From the NCBI GenBank assembly GCA_012034805.1, contig JAAUOP010000007.1, forward strand, positions 1,003 to 65,002: a DNA stretch of 64,000 bases, read 5' to 3'. Shown piece after piece: positions 36,403-41,347 of this stretch (the first letter of the stretch is position 1; every line of letters begins with the position of its first letter). Below the pieces are notes generated by a model, which was given only the letters and a program-made list of their open reading frames with translations, did no database searches and had not been told where the DNA came from. This stretch comes from Synechococcales cyanobacterium CRU_2_2. Its GTDB lineage: Bacteria; Cyanobacteriota; Cyanobacteriia; PCC-9006; JAAUQQ01. The position numbers and the translations under genes are program-made.

Positions 36403-36978
36403 ATGAGGCTCACGTCGCGTCTGTTTCGTCCACGAATGAGTTTGTCCATGAACCAGCTCAACTCGCCTCCGCAGAATAATAGTACGACCGCGATCGCCCC
36501 ATCCCAAGACGGACGCCTCACCAGCAGCTATCTGTTTTGGCTACTGTTCCTCATGGGATTTGGTGGCATCCACCGGATTTACAATGGTAAGGTTCTTACC
36601 GGCGTGCTTTGGTTTTGCACCTGGGGATTTTTTGGCATTGGCCAACTGGTCGATCTGCTCTTGATCCCCGATATGGTCGACACCCGTCGAATGCAGCTTT
36701 TGCGCGCCAACGGTGGGATTCAGCCCGGCACAATGGGTTCACAAGTCGTAGCGGCCCAGACGGTACAAGCGCCGACACGGGAGCAGCTGATGGTGCAGAT
36801 TTTGGCGGCGGCGCGATCGCACCAAGGCAGACTCACGGTTCCCCAGGCTGTTCTGGCAACGCACCTCGGCTTTGACGAAGTGGAAGGCCTCCTACTGGAA
36901 ATGCACCGTAAGGGCTATGCCTCCATGGAGAACGACATGGATACGGGTGTGATTATTTATCACTTTGTGGGGCTATAA
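36403..36978 (+). CDS. TM2-domain membrane protein
   Basis: YLFWLLFLMGFGGIHRIYNGKVLTGVLWFCTWGFFGIGQLVDLLLIPD is the TM2 signature. The start may be 36436 or 36448. Confidence 0.65.
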   Translation: MRLTSRLFRPRMSLSMNQLNSPPQNNSTTAIAPSQDGRLTSSYLFWLLFLMGFGGIHRIYNGKVLTGVLWFCTWGFFGIGQLVDLLLIPDMVDTRRMQLLRANGGIQPGTMGSQVVAAQTVQAPTREQLMVQILAAARSHQGRLTVPQAVLATHLGFDEVEGLLLEMHRKGYASMENDMDTGVIIYHFVGL

Positions 36979-37094
36979 AAAGCTGGTGCACCCTGACAGC
37001 GCACCAACTCATCTTGCTCGGGGTTATTCAGATGGTCTCGAAAGAGCATGATGCCCGATAGTGTCCAGCCTGTGTCACCCAGAAGCCAACCCGT

Positions 37095-37322
37095 CTAAGG
37101 GGTTTTGCCAGCGCAAGGCTTCGCACCTGCACAGGGTTGCTTACCGGCACAAGGAGCAGCACCCGCGCAGGGAGCCTTACCGGCACAGGGAGCAGCAACC
37201 TCACCAGACGTTTCTCCACCAGCCTCAGGGGTTGTTCCACTTGAGCAGCTCGTCGCCAAGCCACTAACACCAACACTCAACACAGAAAATGCGGCAAGAG
37301 TTGCCCAGGTTTTAACGCGCAT
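37095..37322 (-). CDS. Small exported Cys-repeat protein, probable lipoprotein, (x-P-C-A-G-x)x5
   Basis: Signal peptide ending GLATSC, then APCAGKAPCAGAAPCAGKQPCAGAKPCAGKTP, encoded by 18-bp DNA repeats. 75 aa. Confidence 0.55.
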   Translation of the reverse strand: MRVKTWATLAAFSVLSVGVSGLATSCSSGTTPEAGGETSGEVAAPCAGKAPCAGAAPCAGKQPCAGAKPCAGKTP

Positions 37323-37555
37323 ATGCTTTCTCTCGATTTACTGAAGGGTGGGCTGCTGCACAGACAGGGGGAAGACCAAAGCTGTAGCCTTGGCATCGCA
37401 GTGCAGTGGCCCACATGTATATTTGGCCGGGTGAATCTGGTTTTTTGCTGAAACCCTCCCTAACTTTCCATAAGAAACTGAGGCTCAGCAATTCAGAATT
37501 CGTTCAGTAGTGTGCGGAATGAGCGGGTACTTGTCAATCTATAAGATGGCCTTAT

Positions 37556-37637
37556 CTGGCATTATCTTTAGAATCAGGCATTGCCTTTAGAATCAGGCAT
37601 TGCCTTTAGAGCCTGGCATTGCCTCAAATTCTGGCAG
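37556..37637. repeat. Direct repeat array of about four 19-bp units (core ggcattgcctttagaatca)
   Basis: The core GGCATT recurs at 37558, 37577, 37596 and 37615, with a partial copy (GGCA) at 37633. Lies in the divergent region between the Cys-repeat protein and the cupin/two-component genes. Confidence 0.85.
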
Positions 37638-37787
37638 ACGGCTTCCTCGAGTAAGCAGATTTTCTTGAGTATCTCAGCAAACGTTCAGGATTCCGTCAGG
37701 CTTGCATCAGGCAAATGAGATTGGATGGGGGGGCTCTAGTTTAAGCCTCGTTCCCAAGGCTGGCTTGGTCCTCAGGCTGGCCAGGTT

Positions 37788-37824
37788 CTCAGCCTTGGTT
37801 TCAATTCCGGAAACCAAGGCTGAG
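37788..37824. other. Perfect 15-bp stem-loop (ctcagccttggtttc / gaaaccaaggctgag)
   Basis: Read directly. About 100 bp upstream of the cupin ATG. Flanked by related aaggctgg motifs. Confidence 0.5.
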
Positions 37825-37922
37825 GGCGATCGCACGATCAGCTATGAATCAAGATATTTCCTAACCCCTCTAGAATTGTGAAATCATCCGCACTATCTGC
37901 TAAGCCCTATCGGAGACCGACC

Positions 37923-38528
37923 ATGACGAACCAAGACTGGCATGTCACCCAAGTGGGACAGTGCATCATTCCGAGTCGGGAAGTGTTGGTTTCAGAGCCG
38001 ATCGTGCCCTATCGCCTCTATCGTTTTTTGACGGATTTGGAGGAGATTTTGCTCAAGGAGAGCGACGACGCGATCCGACTTCAGCAGATCTGCCCCCTAG
38101 TACGGCATTTGCTCGACCATTCTCCTTGGATTGAGCTGCAATTTCTGATGCCGGATCCGGAAACCGGTTGGTCTGTGAATACACTCTATGACGAGCCAGA
38201 CTACCCCCTAACCATTCAGATCGTGAGCTGGATGCCGGGGGTGAAGTCTTCGATTCATAATCATGCAACCTGGGGACTGGTAGCGGTTTTGGATGGTCAG
38301 GAAAAAAATACATTTTGGCAACAGGCGACCACTGAAGGCCTTCCCCTCAAAAAGACTGGCGATCGCATCCTAGATCCCGGCGACATCATCACCTTTATGC
38401 CCAATGCCATCCACCAGATTGAAGCCCTGGGAGACGATCCTGTGATTAGCTTGAACCTATATGGAGAGACCGAGTTTGAACAACGTTTCCAATTTGATCC
38501 AGACACCGGTGCCGCAACCTTGTTTTAG
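37923..38528 (+). CDS. Cupin-fold protein (cysteine-dioxygenase-like / COG5553-type metal-dependent enzyme)
   Basis: SSIHNHATWGLVAVLDGQEKN and GDIITFMPNAIHQIEALG are cupin motifs 1 and 2. ATG at 37923. Confidence 0.55.
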   Translation: MTNQDWHVTQVGQCIIPSREVLVSEPIVPYRLYRFLTDLEEILLKESDDAIRLQQICPLVRHLLDHSPWIELQFLMPDPETGWSVNTLYDEPDYPLTIQIVSWMPGVKSSIHNHATWGLVAVLDGQEKNTFWQQATTEGLPLKKTGDRILDPGDIITFMPNAIHQIEALGDDPVISLNLYGETEFEQRFQFDPDTGAATLF

Positions 38529-38544
38529 GGACAGGCATCTTGGC

Positions 38545-40002
38545 TTGGGTCGGAAGCCGTGGGGGAGAGCACGCTCTCTACGGGCTCAGTTGACCTCGCA
38601 AGTGGCAATCTTAGCTGCCTTGGGGCTAGGCAGCATGACCGCTTGGTCTGCGTGGCAAATGCGCAGCCTTTTGCTGGGTTCTCATCAGCGAACCTTGGAC
38701 GATGTGGGCGGTCGCTTTACTCACGATTTTTCGGTGGCCCTGGCCCAAGGTTCGGGCCTGGATACCGCAGCGGTCACCGCTATTCAGGCAGCTGTTCAAA
38801 CTGCCTCCACCAAAAACATTTTGCTGTGGGTTGAGAATCCGCAGATGGAGCTGGTGGCCAGTTCTGTGGTGGCTTCTGCCGATGCCATACAGCTCCAGGA
38901 CCTCAGAACCCACGTGAACTTTTCGAGTAAAAGCCATTTGGTGCCCATGGGCGAGCCAAGCCGATATCTGGTGGTTTGTGGCGTTGCTCTGGAGAATCAG
39001 CAACAAACTGTCGGCAACCTCTATTTGGCCTACGACGTCAGCTCCCAACACCAGGCCTATACCACCTACTTGCGCCATTTGATGATGGCCAGTCTATTGC
39101 TGTTGGGGCTATTGACCGGGGCGATTGCCCACTGCGTTCGTCAGGTCACCCAACCCCTCAAGGCCATCAGCGACACCGCCAGCAAGCTTTCTGCAACTGA
39201 TTTGAGCCCAATAACCCTTGACCAATCCCCTGAAGAGATCGCGGGCCTCATCGAAGCCTTCAACGCCATGCTGCTTCGCCTATCGGAAGCTTGGGAGAAA
39301 CAACGCCAGTTCATCAATGACGCCTCCCACGAATTGCGAACGCCCTTGACCGTCGTAGATGGTTACTTACAGAGTATTTTGCGGCGTAAAGACAACCTCA
39401 ATCTACTTCAACAAGAAGCGCTTGGTACCGCCGCCGAAGAAACCCAGCGCACGATTCACATGGTAGAGGAAATGCTGGAAATTGCCCGTGCAGACAGTGG
39501 GCAACTGGTTTTTGATCTAAAGCCAATTGTCTTATACCCCCTACTGCAGAAGACACTTCAAACCATCCAAGCGCGTCATCTGCGATCGCTCATCCTCCGA
39601 GATCCCCCAGGCCCCATCATAGTCTTGGCAGACCCTAAATATCTCCAACAAGCTCTGGTGCATTTACTCGAAAATGCCATCCAATATTCCGACCCTTCGG
39701 AGGCAATTTGCATTTCGCTAGCAGAACAGTTCGATCACGTTAGCATTACCGTTCAGGACACCGGAATAGGTATTGATCCGAAGCATTTGAATCATATTTT
39801 TGAACGCTTTTATCGAGCCGATCCGGCCCGTCATCGACAAGGTGGGACGGGTCTGGGGCTGACGATCGCCAAAGCGTGGGTAGAAGGTATGGGGGGTACC
39901 ATTGCCGTTCAGTCCCAAGTCAACCAGGGTTCTACATTTACGATTTCTCTACAAAACTACAATTTCTCTAAAAACCATGACGACCAGCATTCTTGTTGTT
40001 GA
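38545..40002 (+). CDS. Sensor histidine kinase (two TM helices, periplasmic loop, HAMP, HisKA, HATPase)
   Basis: H-box DASHELRTPLTVV, N-box LLENAIQYS, G-boxes DTGIGI and GGTGLGLTIAKAW. The start is uncertain (TTG at 38545, no ATG nearby; the frame is open from 38461). Confidence 0.8.
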   Translation: MGRKPWGRARSLRAQLTSQVAILAALGLGSMTAWSAWQMRSLLLGSHQRTLDDVGGRFTHDFSVALAQGSGLDTAAVTAIQAAVQTASTKNILLWVENPQMELVASSVVASADAIQLQDLRTHVNFSSKSHLVPMGEPSRYLVVCGVALENQQQTVGNLYLAYDVSSQHQAYTTYLRHLMMASLLLLGLLTGAIAHCVRQVTQPLKAISDTASKLSATDLSPITLDQSPEEIAGLIEAFNAMLLRLSEAWEKQRQFINDASHELRTPLTVVDGYLQSILRRKDNLNLLQQEALGTAAEETQRTIHMVEEMLEIARADSGQLVFDLKPIVLYPLLQKTLQTIQARHLRSLILRDPPGPIIVLADPKYLQQALVHLLENAIQYSDPSEAICISLAEQFDHVSITVQDTGIGIDPKHLNHIFERFYRADPARHRQGGTGLGLTIAKAWVEGMGGTIAVQSQVNQGSTFTISLQNYNFSKNHDDQHSCC

Positions 40003-40651
40003 AGATGAAGTCAAGCTAGCTCGGCTACTGGAGCTAGAATTGACCCAAGAAGGCTATGAGGTGACCGTAGCCCATGATGGCTTTGCGGGGCTAACTAGTG
40101 CTCGAAACAAGCTGCCCGATCTACTGATTTTGGATTGGATGCTGCCAGGTATTTCGGGTGTAGAAATTTGCCGTAGATTGCGATCGACGGGCATTAAAAT
40201 TCCGATCATTTTGCTCACCGCCAAGGACGAAGTTTCGGCACGGGTGGAAGGACTGGATGCGGGGGCGGATGATTATGTGGTTAAACCCTTCAGTCTGGAA
40301 GAATTACTGGCACGGGTGCGATCGAATTTGCGCAAGAGCCAACCCCAGGATGTAGAGCGGCTCGAATTTGACGATCTGCGGCTCGATCGGAAAACCAGAG
40401 AGGTCTGGCGGGGTGATCGCGCCATCGAACTCACGGTCAAAGAATACGACCTGCTGGATTATTTGCTCGCCCATCCTCGCCAAGTCATCACCCGTGACCA
40501 AATCCTGGAGAAAGTTTGGGGCTATGACTTCATGGGCGATTCAAACATCATTGAGGTCTATGTGCGCTATCTGCGCATCAAGCTTGAGGAACAGGGAGAG
40601 CCAAGGCTGATCCAGACGGTGCGAGGGGTCGGATACGTGCTGCGGAGTTAA
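39977..40651 (+). CDS. OmpR-family response regulator
   Basis: MTTSILVVEDEVKLARLL..., receiver Asp in LLILDWMLPG, winged helix ...LTVKEYDLLDYLLAHPRQVITRDQILEKVWG. Overlaps the kinase end. Confidence 0.9.
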   Translation: MTTSILVVEDEVKLARLLELELTQEGYEVTVAHDGFAGLTSARNKLPDLLILDWMLPGISGVEICRRLRSTGIKIPIILLTAKDEVSARVEGLDAGADDYVVKPFSLEELLARVRSNLRKSQPQDVERLEFDDLRLDRKTREVWRGDRAIELTVKEYDLLDYLLAHPRQVITRDQILEKVWGYDFMGDSNIIEVYVRYLRIKLEEQGEPRLIQTVRGVGYVLRS

Positions 40652-40753: not shown

Positions 40754-41347
40754 ATGAACTTAAACAAAAATTCTCCCCAGCTTGTGCGCGATCGCCTTGG
40801 GCGACCCTACGAAATGGTTGTAACCCTCGACGGGCCAGTGAGTCGCTTTCGTCTCTATGATCGCAAAACCTTGGTGGGCGAGGCAAAGTGTCTGCGGTGC
40901 TCTGTAGCGCGGATGGAATTAGGAGATATTGCGATCGCCAACGAAGCCATCCCCACCCCCGCGAATGCTCTGATGCAGCGGTTGCGCCAGATTCCCGGCT
41001 GCCAGCATGCCCCCGTCAACTATCGAGGTCGGGGATTGGGAACAGTGTTGCTTCAGCATCTTGTGAATCATGCGCGATCGGCAGGGGCTCAGGAACTCTG
41101 GGGTGAGGTGTTTCAGCAAGATATCGAAAATGATCCAGGCTTACTCAACTGGTACCAGAACTTTGGGTTTGAACGCCATTCTCCTTCGGCTGAGGTGGGG
41201 GAAGATGTAGTGGCACTGATTTGTTTTGCACTAGATACAATAAAGTCGAACGCAACGAAATTGGATGCAACAAAATCGGATGCAACGAAATCGGACGCGA
41301 TAAAATTGGATGCAACGAGATCAGATGCAAAAACATCTATTTCCTAG
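40754..41347 (+). CDS. GNAT-family N-acetyltransferase with a repetitive C-terminal tail
   Basis: Acetyl-CoA loop YRGRGLGTVLLQHLVNHA...NFGFE. The tail (D-A-T-K-[SL])n is encoded by 15-bp repeats at about 41234-41335. Confidence 0.65.
   Translation: MNLNKNSPQLVRDRLGRPYEMVVTLDGPVSRFRLYDRKTLVGEAKCLRCSVARMELGDIAIANEAIPTPANALMQRLRQIPGCQHAPVNYRGRGLGTVLLQHLVNHARSAGAQELWGEVFQQDIENDPGLLNWYQNFGFERHSPSAEVGEDVVALICFALDTIKSNATKLDATKSDATKSDAIKLDATRSDAKTSIS

What the first reader, a model, noticed from the sequence alone, without database searches (positions are those of the whole stretch)
37095..40651. Cys-repeat (PCAG x5) exported mini-protein next to a cupin and a kinase/OmpR pair: a possible undescribed metal-sensing or buffering module
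The 75-aa product has a signal peptide ending GLATSC, followed by five evenly spaced cysteines in A-P-C-A-G-K/A units. This arrangement resembles a periplasmic thiolate metal-binding peptide more than any enzyme.

Divergently transcribed are a cupin with a cysteine-dioxygenase-like His motif and an overlapping sensor kinase and OmpR-type regulator. That gene order recalls cyanobacterial copper or nickel two-component modules, but the accessory proteins differ.
Basis: inference. Interest (0 to 1): 0.6.

Follow-up and report, generated by a model that had tools for sequence, protein, structure and literature searches.

The report
Exported cysteine-repeat lipoprotein with sensor module
The small gene is real: it encodes a membrane-anchored peptide carrying five evenly spaced cysteines, and it belongs to an apparently undescribed cyanobacterial gene module (cysteine-repeat exported proteins, a thiol-dioxygenase-like enzyme and a two-component sensor) whose trigger, a metal or a redox or sulfur stress, is still unknown.

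Summary
Window 37095-37322 (-) encodes a 75-aa pre-lipoprotein: a signal peptide, a lipobox cysteine, and five [A/Q/K]PCAG[K/A] hexapeptides.

It is the smallest form of a conserved exported module, made of an MKVKYLATLAA..S.LSLG..GC leader followed by (N/D/A)PCA[GAS]x repeats.
- A profile of the module hit 44 of 401 sampled cyanobacterial genomes.
- The module occurs alone, or fused to a periplasmic thioredoxin-fold domain or a YHS (seleno)protein domain. A CcdA/DsbD-type gene often lies beside it.
- A Nitrosomonas homologue sits beside a SoxA/TsdA-like cytochrome c, a thioredoxin and a DsbD_TM gene.

The module is tightly linked to the neighbouring cupin.
- 40 of the 44 module-positive genomes carry the cupin, and about 32 carry it within 3 kb.
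- 33 of 38 dereplicated cupin loci carry a cysteine-repeat partner.

The cupin has a thiol-dioxygenase fold and the 3-His site, but its Ser-His-Tyr triad reads Ser-Asn-Tyr. The cupin-kinase-regulator operon carries a conserved operator-like array with 11-bp spacing; in the window it lies at 37674-37709.

I found no paper describing the repeat motif. The function is inferred, not shown. The likeliest role is a sensor-controlled layer of reduced thiols in the cell envelope that captures soft metals such as Cu(I). Redox or sulfur buffering is nearly as likely.

The parts
37095..37322 (-). Gene for the 75-aa pre-lipoprotein with five PCAG[K/A] repeats (stop codon included). The signal peptide is residues 1-25 (37248-37322). 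The lipobox cysteine is Cys26 (37245-37247).
   Evidence: ORF. Homologues P0002 and P0003 and 15 more share the same architecture. The Atlas nearest cluster is named 'putative Lipoprotein', Cyanobacteriota.
37104..37193 (-). Five hexapeptide repeats [A/Q/K]PCAG[K/A] (residues 44-73). P-C-A is invariant across the family.
   Evidence: A relative shows an in-frame 36-nt deletion (37132-37167).
37432..37453 (-). Weak look-alike of the conserved operator box (TTTCAGCAAAAAACCAGATTCA), 110-131 nt upstream of the small gene's ATG. Similar sequences lie in the same place in the nearest relatives L035, L036 and L080.
   Evidence: It is the second-best PWM score in the window, but it is not above what shuffled sequence gives, so it is only suggestive.
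37554..37624 (.). Three to four 19-bp direct repeats (ATCAGGCATTGCCTTTAGA). Their role is unknown.
   Evidence: They were also noted in earlier finding e1-2781298.
37674..37709 (+). Candidate operator of the OmpR-type regulator: four TCA half-sites at exact 11-bp spacing (TCAGCAAACGTTCAGGATTCCGTCAGGCTTGCATCA), facing the cupin operon.
   Evidence: It is the only match in 64 kb, with 0.01 expected by chance. It corresponds to the box TTCAGCAAAAATTCATCT..ATTAGG..ATCATCTAG, found 75-439 nt upstream of the cupin gene in 48 of 80 related loci.
37788..37824 (.). Perfect 15-bp inverted repeat with a 7-nt loop, lying between the candidate operator and the cupin start. Its role is unknown.
37923..38528 (+). 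Thiol-dioxygenase-fold cupin (201 aa, no signal peptide). The 3-His site is H112, H114 and H164. The triad is S176-N178-Y180.
   Evidence: Pfam CDO_I scores 20.7 bits, below the cut-off of 23. A profile against PDB hits MDO 3uss at E 9.5e-17. The AF2 model has pLDDT 90, and Foldseek gives 4tlf, 8vni and 6xb9 at TM 0.72. Invariant residues are listed.
38545..40002 (+). Sensor histidine kinase: TM, a periplasmic domain of about 150 aa, TM, HAMP, HisKA and HATPase. The start is probably TTG 38545; the longest ORF starts at 38461.
39977..40651 (+). OmpR/PhoB-family response regulator. The start is probably ATG 39977, which overlaps the kinase gene by 26 nt.
   Evidence: The best NCBIfam match is NblR at 281.7 bits, below its cut-off of 300.

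Best explanation
**What is there.** The 75-aa product is exported by Sec. It is probably lipidated at Cys26 and tethered to a membrane facing the periplasm. It presents a flexible, intrinsically disordered chain of five cysteine thiols (PCAG[K/A] x5).

It is the minimal member of a family of exported PCA-repeat modules. In other cyanobacteria these are fused to periplasmic thioredoxin-fold or YHS domains and sit next to a CcdA/DsbD-type gene, which would supply reductant.

**Proposed mechanism.**
- The adjacent kinase senses an envelope stress.
- The OmpR-type regulator binds 11-bp-spaced direct repeats in the shared 600-bp intergenic region. It then induces both the cupin-kinase-regulator operon and the divergent cysteine-repeat gene.
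- The reduced thiolates capture a thiophilic species in the periplasm, most likely Cu(I) or another soft metal ion. This would resemble the way the PcoE/SilE, CopM or bufferin 'sponges' work.
- The cytoplasmic thiol-dioxygenase-like cupin deals with a thiol on the inside.

**Shown:** the gene, the family, its three architectures, the genetic linkage to the cupin and the two-component system, the cupin fold and metal site, and the conserved operator-like box.

**Inferred:** lipidation, the reduced state of the thiols, regulation by this two-component system, the nature of the signal, and metal binding.

**My split of the odds for the species captured or buffered:**
- soft metal: about 0.35
- oxidant, or sulfane sulfur or thiosulfate: about 0.3
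- cysteines enzymatically modified before export: about 0.15
- something else: about 0.2
For: **The gene and the family are real.**
- Homologues share the leader, the lipobox and the PCA repeats.
- A profile of the module hits 44 of 401 sampled cyanobacterial genomes.

**Linkage to the cupin and the two-component system.**
- 40 of those 44 genomes carry the cupin, against 95 of 401 overall. About 32 carry it within 3 kb.
- 33 of 38 dereplicated cupin loci have a cysteine-repeat partner within 2.6 kb, and 28 of 38 have the kinase directly downstream.
- In Calothrix/Rivularia-type loci the cupin is followed on the same strand by a stand-alone small gene with no two-component system.

**A reducing context.**
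- Thioredoxin-fold fusions carry WC[PSA][AG]C active sites and resemble TrxA, TlpA, DsbE and ResA.
- DsbD_TM genes occur in 30 of 80 loci.
- The Nitrosomonas homologue lies beside a thioredoxin and a DsbD_TM gene.

**Hints towards a metal.**
- The kinase's best curated family is the heavy-metal sensor kinases, TIGR01386.
- YHS is a domain that Pfam links to copper proteins (the copper link is from my knowledge of the Pfam description).
- Acidic repeat variants (DPCAGE, DPCAAA) would favour cations.
- The closest described analogues, bufferins and the EGKCG-repeat oxazolins, are signal-peptide-bearing cysteine-repeat copper binders (PMC12452194, PMC11626156).

**Regulation.**
- A conserved operator-like box with four half-sites at an 11-bp period lies upstream of the cupin operon in 48 of 80 loci.
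- The same box occurs uniquely in the window at 37674-37709.
Against: - No metal-resistance gene (efflux pump, P-type ATPase, multicopper oxidase) recurs near the module.
- The kinase and regulator fall below the heavy-metal family cut-offs.
- The kinase's periplasmic domain is poorly conserved.
- One cysteine every six residues, each preceded by a proline, is not a known chelating motif such as CxxC or CxC.
- The partner domains (thioredoxin, YHS selenoprotein family, SoxA/TsdA-like cytochrome, thiol dioxygenase) point at least as much to thiol redox or sulfur chemistry.
- This genome has no cysteine-repeat thioredoxin fusion next to the small gene. How its thiols would stay reduced is therefore open.
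- The candidate regulator box in front of the small gene is not statistically significant on its own.
- Expression evidence is limited to one 221-nt contig from a relative in an RNA library.
Confidence: 0.4

Rival explanations
1. **Periplasmic redox or sulfur buffer.** The repeated cysteines act as sacrificial or carrier thiols. They would either scavenge oxidants such as H2O2 or HOCl, or carry sulfane sulfur or thiosulfate in the way the SoxY cysteine arm does. Thioredoxin and CcdA would recycle them. The cupin would oxidise a surplus cytoplasmic thiol or persulfide. The two-component system would sense thiol, sulfide or oxidative envelope stress.
For: - The repeats are fused to thioredoxin-fold and YHS (seleno)protein domains.
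- DsbD_TM genes lie in 30 of 80 loci.
- In Nitrosomonas the small gene is followed by a SoxA/TsdA-like cytochrome c. In P0012 the repeats are fused to that same domain.
- The cupin belongs to the thiol-dioxygenase fold.
- Carriers are largely mat, biofilm and stromatolite cyanobacteria such as Microcoleus, Phormidium, Leptolyngbya, Chamaesiphon and Spirulina, where sulfide and oxidant swings are common (the ecology is from general knowledge).
Against: - No sulfide:quinone reductase, rhodanese, persulfide dioxygenase or peroxiredoxin recurs in the loci.
- The charge of the repeats varies from Lys-rich to Asp/Glu-rich, so a conserved anion-binding site is unlikely.
- The cupin lacks the triad histidine of active thiol dioxygenases.
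Confidence: 0.3
2. **Cupin-modified peptide (RiPP-like).** The cytoplasmic 3-His iron cupin would oxidise or otherwise modify the PCA cysteines of the precursor before Sec export. The unusually conserved leader MKVKYLATLAA..S.LSLG would serve as a recognition element. The product would be a lipid-anchored modified peptide, for example a metallophore. This is analogous to bufferins and oxazolins, but with a cupin in place of an MNIO enzyme.
For: - The cupin and the cysteine-repeat genes stay linked even where the two-component system is absent; in those loci the cupin is followed by the small gene on the same strand.
- The leader is far better conserved than ordinary signal peptides, across all three architectures and many families.
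- The cupin's substrate-binding positions differ from those of small-molecule thiol dioxygenases: the Arg60/Gln62 position is not conserved, and LYDEP is invariant.
- There is precedent for signal-peptide-bearing cysteine-repeat precursors modified by iron enzymes (PMC12452194).
- No MNIO gene was found in this genome, so another enzyme would be needed.
Against: - The cupin is co-transcribed with the kinase, not with the peptide, in most loci.
- Many Nostocales genomes carry the cupin without an adjacent repeat gene.
- Repeat proteins of 200-285 aa with folded domains are unusual substrates.
- The triad His-to-Asn change may mean low or different activity.
- The complex prediction gave no verdict, so it provides no support.
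Confidence: 0.15
3. **Accidental neighbours.** The small protein is a structural or spacer lipoprotein, and its link to the two-component system is incidental. The PCA repeats would be a low-complexity linker without thiol chemistry.
For: - The repeat number varies freely, from 3 to 13 units, including an in-frame two-unit deletion in a close relative.
- In the fusion proteins the repeats sit where a linker would sit, between the leader and the folded domain.
Against: - P-C-A is invariant in every repeat of every member, while the flanking residues vary.
- Stand-alone forms have nothing to link.
- Linkage to the cupin holds across about 20 cyanobacterial families.
- The own genome's YHS lipoprotein uses an Ala/Ser/Thr linker without cysteines, so cysteines are not needed for spacing.
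Confidence: 0.1

Closest known systems
Bufferins and EGKCG-repeat 'oxazolins' (MNIO-modified periplasmic copper-binding RiPPs; PMC11626156, PMC12452194, PMC11252979)
   Same: - They are small or repeat-containing precursors with a Sec signal peptide.
- They carry regularly repeated cysteines in Gly/Lys-rich motifs.
- They occur alone or fused to extra domains, act in the periplasm, and are often under stress-responsive regulators.
   Different: - No MNIO (PF05114) or DUF2063 partner is present here.
- The repeat is xPCA[GAS]x, not EGKCG.
- The small protein has no BufA2 HMM match. The best family member scores 17 bits against a cut-off of 60.
- The linked iron enzyme candidate is a cupin. Modification is unproven.
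PcoE/SilE and cyanobacterial CopM (periplasmic metal 'sponges' encoded beside and controlled by a metal-sensing two-component system)
   Same: Each is a small, largely disordered exported protein encoded next to an OmpR-type two-component system with a periplasm-sensing kinase.
   Different: - Those proteins use Met/His ligands, not cysteines.
- Those systems sit with efflux genes, which is not the case here.
- The kinase and regulator here do not reach the curated heavy-metal family scores.
Thiol dioxygenases of the CDO_I family (3-mercaptopropionate dioxygenase 3uss/4tlf/6xb9, mercaptosuccinate dioxygenase 8vni, cysteine dioxygenase)
   Same: - The cupin has the same fold with N-terminal helices (TM 0.72, 26-28% identity).
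- It has the 3-His metal site and the conserved Ser and Tyr of the triad.
   Different: - The triad His is an invariant Asn (S-N-Y).
- The Arg60/Gln62 substrate-anchoring position is not conserved.
- There is an extra conserved N-terminal strand (MxxQDWxVT).
- The Pfam score is below the gathering threshold.
- It is genetically tied to a kinase and to exported cysteine-repeat proteins.
Scs (suppressor of copper sensitivity) and CcdA/DsbD-thioredoxin reducing pathways of the cell envelope (from general knowledge)
   Same: In the wider family, a DsbD/CcdA-type membrane electron conduit and periplasmic thioredoxin-fold proteins are encoded together. In Salmonella the Scs system is under envelope-stress two-component control and is linked to copper tolerance.
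   Different: - This window has only the stand-alone peptide and no adjacent thioredoxin or CcdA gene.
- The N-terminal PCA-repeat tail and the cupin have no counterpart in Scs.
Metallothioneins (SmtA/BmtA in cyanobacteria)
   Same: They are small and cysteine-rich, with a Cys/Lys/Ala/Gly/Ser/Pro/Asn-dominated composition.
   Different: - Metallothioneins are cytoplasmic, use clustered CxC/CxxC motifs plus His, and adopt a fold around a metal cluster.
- Here there is one isolated cysteine per six residues, the protein is exported, and there is no Pfam match.

Membership tests
Bacterial lipoprotein (Lgt/LspA substrate) | N-terminal signal peptide ending in a lipobox [LVI][ASTVI][GAS]C | tested here: met
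   - The window sequence reads ...SGLATS|C, which is acceptable at -2/-1/+1 but has Ala rather than Leu at -3.
- Homologues carry canonical boxes such as LVVGC, LVAAC and LATGC at the same position.
- Lipidation itself was not tested.
Thiol dioxygenase (Pfam CDO_I PF05995; CDO/MDO) | Cupin fold of the CDO type | tested here: met
   The AF2 model has pLDDT 90. The top 40 Foldseek PDB hits are thiol or cysteine dioxygenases, with TM 0.62-0.72. The profile against PDB gives E 9.5e-17 to 3uss.
Thiol dioxygenase (Pfam CDO_I PF05995; CDO/MDO) | 3-His iron site (HxH...H) | tested here: met
   H112, H114 and H164 are invariant in 11 family members. They align to the VHDH and VHQV segments of MDO.
Thiol dioxygenase (Pfam CDO_I PF05995; CDO/MDO) | Ser-His-Tyr catalytic triad | tested here: not met
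   The MDO segment ISIHVYG aligns to ISFNLYG. Ser176 and Tyr180 are kept, but the His is an invariant Asn178.
Thiol dioxygenase (Pfam CDO_I PF05995; CDO/MDO) | Substrate-carboxylate anchor (Arg60 in CDO, Gln62 in MDO) and a score above the Pfam gathering threshold | tested here: not met
   The Gln62 region aligns to Ser/Val, and the invariant LYDEP follows it. The Pfam score is 20.7, below 23.
Heavy-metal two-component system (TIGR01386 cztS_silS_copS / TIGR01387 cztR_silR_copR) | Score at or above the curated cut-off | tested here: not met
   The kinase scores 229.7 against 292.55. The regulator scores 227.9 against 279.2, and its best match is NblR at 281.7 against 300.
Heavy-metal two-component system (TIGR01386 cztS_silS_copS / TIGR01387 cztR_silR_copR) | Neighbouring metal efflux or detoxification genes | tested here: not met
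   The recurrent neighbours in 80 loci are cysteine-repeat proteins, DsbD_TM, DUF4079, DUF6335 and an unnamed membrane protein. No RND pump, P-type ATPase or multicopper oxidase recurs.
Bufferin/oxazolin RiPPs | Adjacent MNIO (PF05114) and DUF2063 modifying enzymes | tested here: not met
   PF05114 was not found in the own genome, which is 88.9% complete. It is also not among the recurrent neighbours.
Bufferin/oxazolin RiPPs | Match to precursor models (for example NF050166 BufA2) | tested here: not met
   The window protein has no NCBIfam hit. The relative in L016 scores 17.1 bits against a cut-off of 60.
Metallothionein | Clustered CxC/CxxC motifs and a metal-thiolate cluster fold | tested here: not met
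   The cysteines are single, spaced every six residues, and there is no Pfam match. Metal binding cannot be tested with these tools.

The most novel reading that the evidence does not exclude
The thiol-dioxygenase-like cupin (3-His iron site, S-N-Y triad) is a peptide-cysteine-modifying enzyme. It would act on the PCA repeats of Sec/lipoprotein precursors before export, using the conserved MKVKYLATLAA leader for recognition. That would define a new, MNIO-independent class of ribosomally made, lipid-anchored envelope peptides (metallophores or redox peptides). It would also be the first cupin-type thiol dioxygenase with a protein substrate in bacteria.
Probability: 0.15. Interest if true: 0.85.

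Novelty: new variant of a known kind. Interest (0 to 1): 0.66.

Why it matters
**Known systems do not cover most cyanobacteria.** Cyanobacteria need copper and other metals for photosynthesis, yet are poisoned by them. Many also live in mats with strong sulfide and oxidant swings. The known envelope defences (CopMRS/CopBAC, NrsRS) come from a few model strains that most species do not match.

**What this module adds.** It combines an exported cysteine-repeat protein, a thiol-dioxygenase-like cupin and a two-component system.
- The repeat module is present in about a tenth of sampled cyanobacterial genomes, and the cupin in about a quarter.
- I found no paper describing the repeat motif, so it has no described function.

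**What follows if it is a thiol-based trap for metals or reactive species.**
- It would add a new class of periplasmic buffer.
- It would assign a function to the widespread YHS (seleno)protein and thioredoxin fusions.
- It would provide a defined promoter-operator pair that responds to an as yet unknown envelope signal.

**What follows if the cupin modifies the peptide.** It would open a new enzyme-substrate class parallel to the recently discovered bufferins.

Tried and rejected
1. **Complex prediction.** Cupin plus small protein gave no verdict (score 0.01). It counts neither for nor against binding.
2. **Pfam and NCBIfam on the small protein.** No family was found.
3. **Literature search for the motif.** NPCAAK, NPCAGK, PCAAK and PCAGK had zero occurrences. 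Searches combining cysteine dioxygenase, cyanobacteria, two-component and thioredoxin, or sigG/sapG and cupin, or cysteine-rich, thioredoxin-like and copper, found nothing specific.
4. **CopR operator.** I looked for its sequence in PMC4182526, but the paper does not give one.
5. **Operator PWM.** A PWM built from 47 distinct sites did not give a significant hit in front of the small gene. The best score there is 9.0, within the range of shuffled sequence. Only the box facing the cupin is significant.
6. **Expression.**
   - No RNA run of this organism was found.
   - One 221-nt contig from a lake metatranscriptome, 96% identical, covers 37261-37480.
   - That contig could be DNA carry-over or a longer transcript.
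7. **Antisense ORFs rejected.** The ORFs over the repeat (37061-37267 +, 37105-37344 +, 37028-37276 -) are frame artefacts of the repeat. Only the minus-strand frame with the signal peptide is conserved.
8. **Metallothionein and MNIO/bufferin membership rejected.** See the membership tests.
9. **FGE-type modification not pursued.**
   - An FGE-sulfatase-domain gene follows the second repeat gene of this genome and one relative.
   - The repeats lack the CxPxR motif, and the association is seen in only two loci.

Full report
**1. The observation**

The minus-strand ORF 37095-37322 encodes MRVKTWATLAAFSVLSVGVSGLATSCSSGTTPEAGGETSGEVAAPCAGKAPCAGAAPCAGKQPCAGAKPCAGKTP.
- It has a positively charged N-terminus, a hydrophobic core and a lipobox-like LATS|C.
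- A Thr/Glu/Gly-rich linker follows, and then five hexapeptides [A/Q/K]PCAG[K/A] at exact register.
- The DNA shows the matching 18/36-nt period.
- A purine-rich stretch (GAGAGAAAG) precedes the ATG.
- The ORFs on the other frames and strand over the repeat are frame artefacts. Only this frame is conserved in relatives.

The divergent genes are a cupin, a histidine kinase (HAMP, HisKA, HATPase) and an OmpR/PhoB-type regulator. Comparison with homologues moves three starts:
- the cupin to ATG 37923;
- the kinase probably to TTG 38545;
- the regulator to ATG 39977.

The window comes from a cyanobacterial genome bin of a stromatolite metagenome. Its nearest relatives are labelled Pseudanabaenaceae.

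**2. The small protein belongs to a family**

Word-indexed and exhaustive searches found 3 and 18 proteins respectively. Most share the same plan:
- a leader close to MKVKYLATLAAxSxLSLGLVxGC;
- often a first NPCA unit directly after the lipobox cysteine;
- a 15-20-aa Thr/Glu/Pro linker;
- then 3-13 repeats of (N/D/A)PCA[GAS][K/A/E].

P-C-A is invariant in every aligned repeat. The flanking charge ranges from Lys-rich to Asp/Glu-rich.

Six-frame searches of 401 sampled cyanobacterial genomes gave 22 hits with the single protein and 44 with a profile. The hits spread over about 20 families.

The same leader-plus-repeat module occurs in three architectures:
- stand-alone small proteins of 55-118 aa;
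- fusions to a thioredoxin-fold domain with a WC[PSA][AG]C site (about 165-230 aa);
- fusions to the YHS (seleno)protein domain NF041384 (about 210-285 aa).

Outside cyanobacteria, a Nitrosomonas small protein (P0011) lies next to a SoxA/TsdA-like cytochrome c, a thioredoxin and a DsbD_TM gene. A metagenomic protein (P0012) has the repeats on both sides of that cytochrome domain.

The own genome holds a second repeat gene, cut by a contig end and followed by an FGE-sulfatase-domain membrane protein. It also holds a YHS lipoprotein whose linker has no cysteines. A loose search for PC[AGST] repeats finds nine ORFs in the 5.3-Mb genome. Only the two PCA-type ones are real, so chance adjacency is negligible.

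**3. The linkage to the cupin and the two-component system is conserved**
- The two nearest homologues of the small protein have the same divergent cupin-kinase arrangement. The regulator follows in L006; the L007 contig ends within the kinase gene.
- Starting from the cupin instead, 303 genomic loci encode a relative, and the 80 best were kept.
- Of those 80, 63 have a cysteine-repeat, thioredoxin-fusion or YHS-fusion gene within 2.6 kb, nearly always divergent. In 56 the kinase lies directly downstream.
- After dereplication at 85% cupin identity, the counts are 33 of 38 and 28 of 38. Three of the five exceptions are cut by contig ends.
- In four Calothrix/Rivularia-type loci the cupin is followed on the same strand by a stand-alone small gene, with no two-component system. 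Other Nostocales copies sit beside an ECF sigma/anti-sigma pair or an ArsR-type regulator.
- In the 401-genome sample the cupin is present in 95 genomes. Of the 44 module-positive genomes, 40 have it, about 32 within 3 kb. Related genomes are not independent, but the pattern spans many families.
- A DsbD_TM (CcdA-like) gene lies just beyond the thioredoxin fusions in 30 of 80 loci. DUF4079 lies there in 21, mostly Microcoleus.
- No metal efflux or detoxification gene recurs.

**4. The cupin**
- Pfam CDO_I and Cupin_2 match below threshold.
- A family profile hits 3-mercaptopropionate dioxygenase (3uss, 6xb9), mercaptosuccinate dioxygenase (8vni) and cysteine dioxygenases at E 1e-16 to 1e-5.
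- The AlphaFold model (pLDDT 90) matches these structures at TM about 0.72.
- The three iron-binding histidines, and the Ser and Tyr of the catalytic triad, are invariant. The triad histidine is an invariant asparagine.
- The position of the substrate-anchoring Arg60/Gln62 is not conserved, and an invariant LYDEP follows it.
- The protein has no signal peptide.

It is therefore a cytoplasmic member of the thiol-dioxygenase fold with an altered active-site shell. Its substrate is unknown.

**5. Regulation**
- Upstream of the cupin gene, 48 of 80 loci carry TTCAGCAAAAATTCATCT-N-ATTAGG-N-ATCATCTAG. That is four half-sites with an 11-bp period, the geometry used by OmpR/PhoB-type regulators (the geometry is established knowledge).
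- In the window, four TCA half-sites at exact 11-bp spacing occur once in 64 kb, with 0.01 expected. They lie at 37674-37709, facing the cupin operon.
- A weaker look-alike lies 110-131 nt upstream of the small gene and is shared with the nearest relatives. It is not significant on its own.
- The intergenic region also holds the 19-bp repeats noted earlier and a perfect 15-bp inverted repeat.
- The kinase has two transmembrane segments around a poorly conserved domain of about 150 aa.
- Its best curated family is the heavy-metal sensor kinases. The regulator's best is NblR. All are below cut-off.

**6. Interpretation**

Firmly supported:
- a real exported cysteine-repeat lipoprotein gene;
- a family with three architectures;
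- a conserved genetic unit with a thiol-dioxygenase-fold cupin and a two-component system;
- partners that form a reducing pathway (CcdA-type conduit and thioredoxin fold).

This argues that the cysteines function as reduced thiols in the envelope and are produced on demand. What they meet is not shown.
- *For a soft metal, with Cu(I) first:* the kinase's family resemblance, the YHS domain, the acidic repeat variants, and the analogy to PcoE/SilE, CopM, Scs and the copper-binding bufferins and oxazolins (PMC11626156, PMC12452194).
- *For redox or sulfur chemistry:* the thioredoxin, YHS-selenoprotein and SoxA/TsdA-like partners, the thiol-dioxygenase fold, and the mat habitat.
- *A third reading:* the cupin modifies the cysteines before export. 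The cupin-small-gene operons, the unusually conserved leader and the absence of an MNIO gene keep this open. The complex prediction gave no verdict.

**7. Novelty**

The motif strings do not occur in the paper library, and no curated family covers the repeat module. The scan had noted a cupin-kinase-regulator operon in another genome (e1-2900018; a first-reader note that I did not check) and the 19-bp repeats here (e1-2781298).

I rate this as a new variant of a known kind: a two-component-controlled periplasmic buffer or trap. The protein family is undescribed and the enzyme partner is unexpected.

**8. Limits**
- The function is inferred from sequence and gene context only.
- Expression evidence is one RNA-library contig from a relative.
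- Related genomes inflate the counts.
- The genome is 88.9% complete, so absences are provisional.

Noticed in passing
G000:C122:7917-9092 (locus L002 460-1638): A second PCA-repeat gene (...EKPCAGAAPCAGAKKPCAGAAPCAGVKPCAGR) is cut by the contig end. A membrane-anchored FGE-sulfatase-domain protein of 342 aa follows it directly. The same repeat-gene, FGE and (broken) cupin order occurs in L014.
   Followed up: partly
window 37554-37624: Three to four 19-bp direct repeats (ATCAGGCATTGCCTTTAGA) lie between the two divergent promoters. They do not match the conserved 11-bp-period box, and their role is unknown.
   Followed up: partly
window 37788-37824: A perfect 15-bp inverted repeat with a 7-nt loop lies about 100 nt upstream of the cupin start. 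An independent assembly of the same sample breaks its contigs at 37818/37819, inside this hairpin.
   Followed up: no
window 37132-37167: A roughly 90%-identical relative in another public run lacks exactly 36 nt here, which is two hexapeptide units. This shows that repeat number varies in frame.
   Followed up: partly
L115:6001-9044 (Nitrosomonas sp. PRO4 contig): A proteobacterial version of the module: an 86-aa NPCA[AS]K-repeat protein, then a SoxA/TsdA-like cytochrome c (222 aa), a thioredoxin-fold protein and a DsbD_TM protein, all on the same strand.
   Followed up: partly
L049, L050, L064, L083, L087, L095, L099 (ECF pair); L075, L078, L085 (ArsR-type): In several Nostocales the same cupin sits next to an ECF sigma factor and an RskA-type anti-sigma pair, or next to an ArsR-family regulator followed by PstS/PstC-like genes, rather than next to a kinase.
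   Followed up: no
G000:C298:11926-12579: The own genome encodes a YHS (seleno)protein-family lipoprotein whose linker is Ala/Ser/Thr-rich and contains no cysteine repeats.
   Followed up: partly
window 40754-41347: A GNAT acetyltransferase ends in a run of pentapeptide repeats (ATKLD/ATKSD/AIKLD/ATRSD).
   Followed up: no
window 36403-36978: A TM2-domain membrane protein lies downstream of the small gene. The synteny (AcsF, TM2, small gene, cupin) is kept only in the closest relatives (L006/L036, L035), so it is probably not part of the module.
   Followed up: partly
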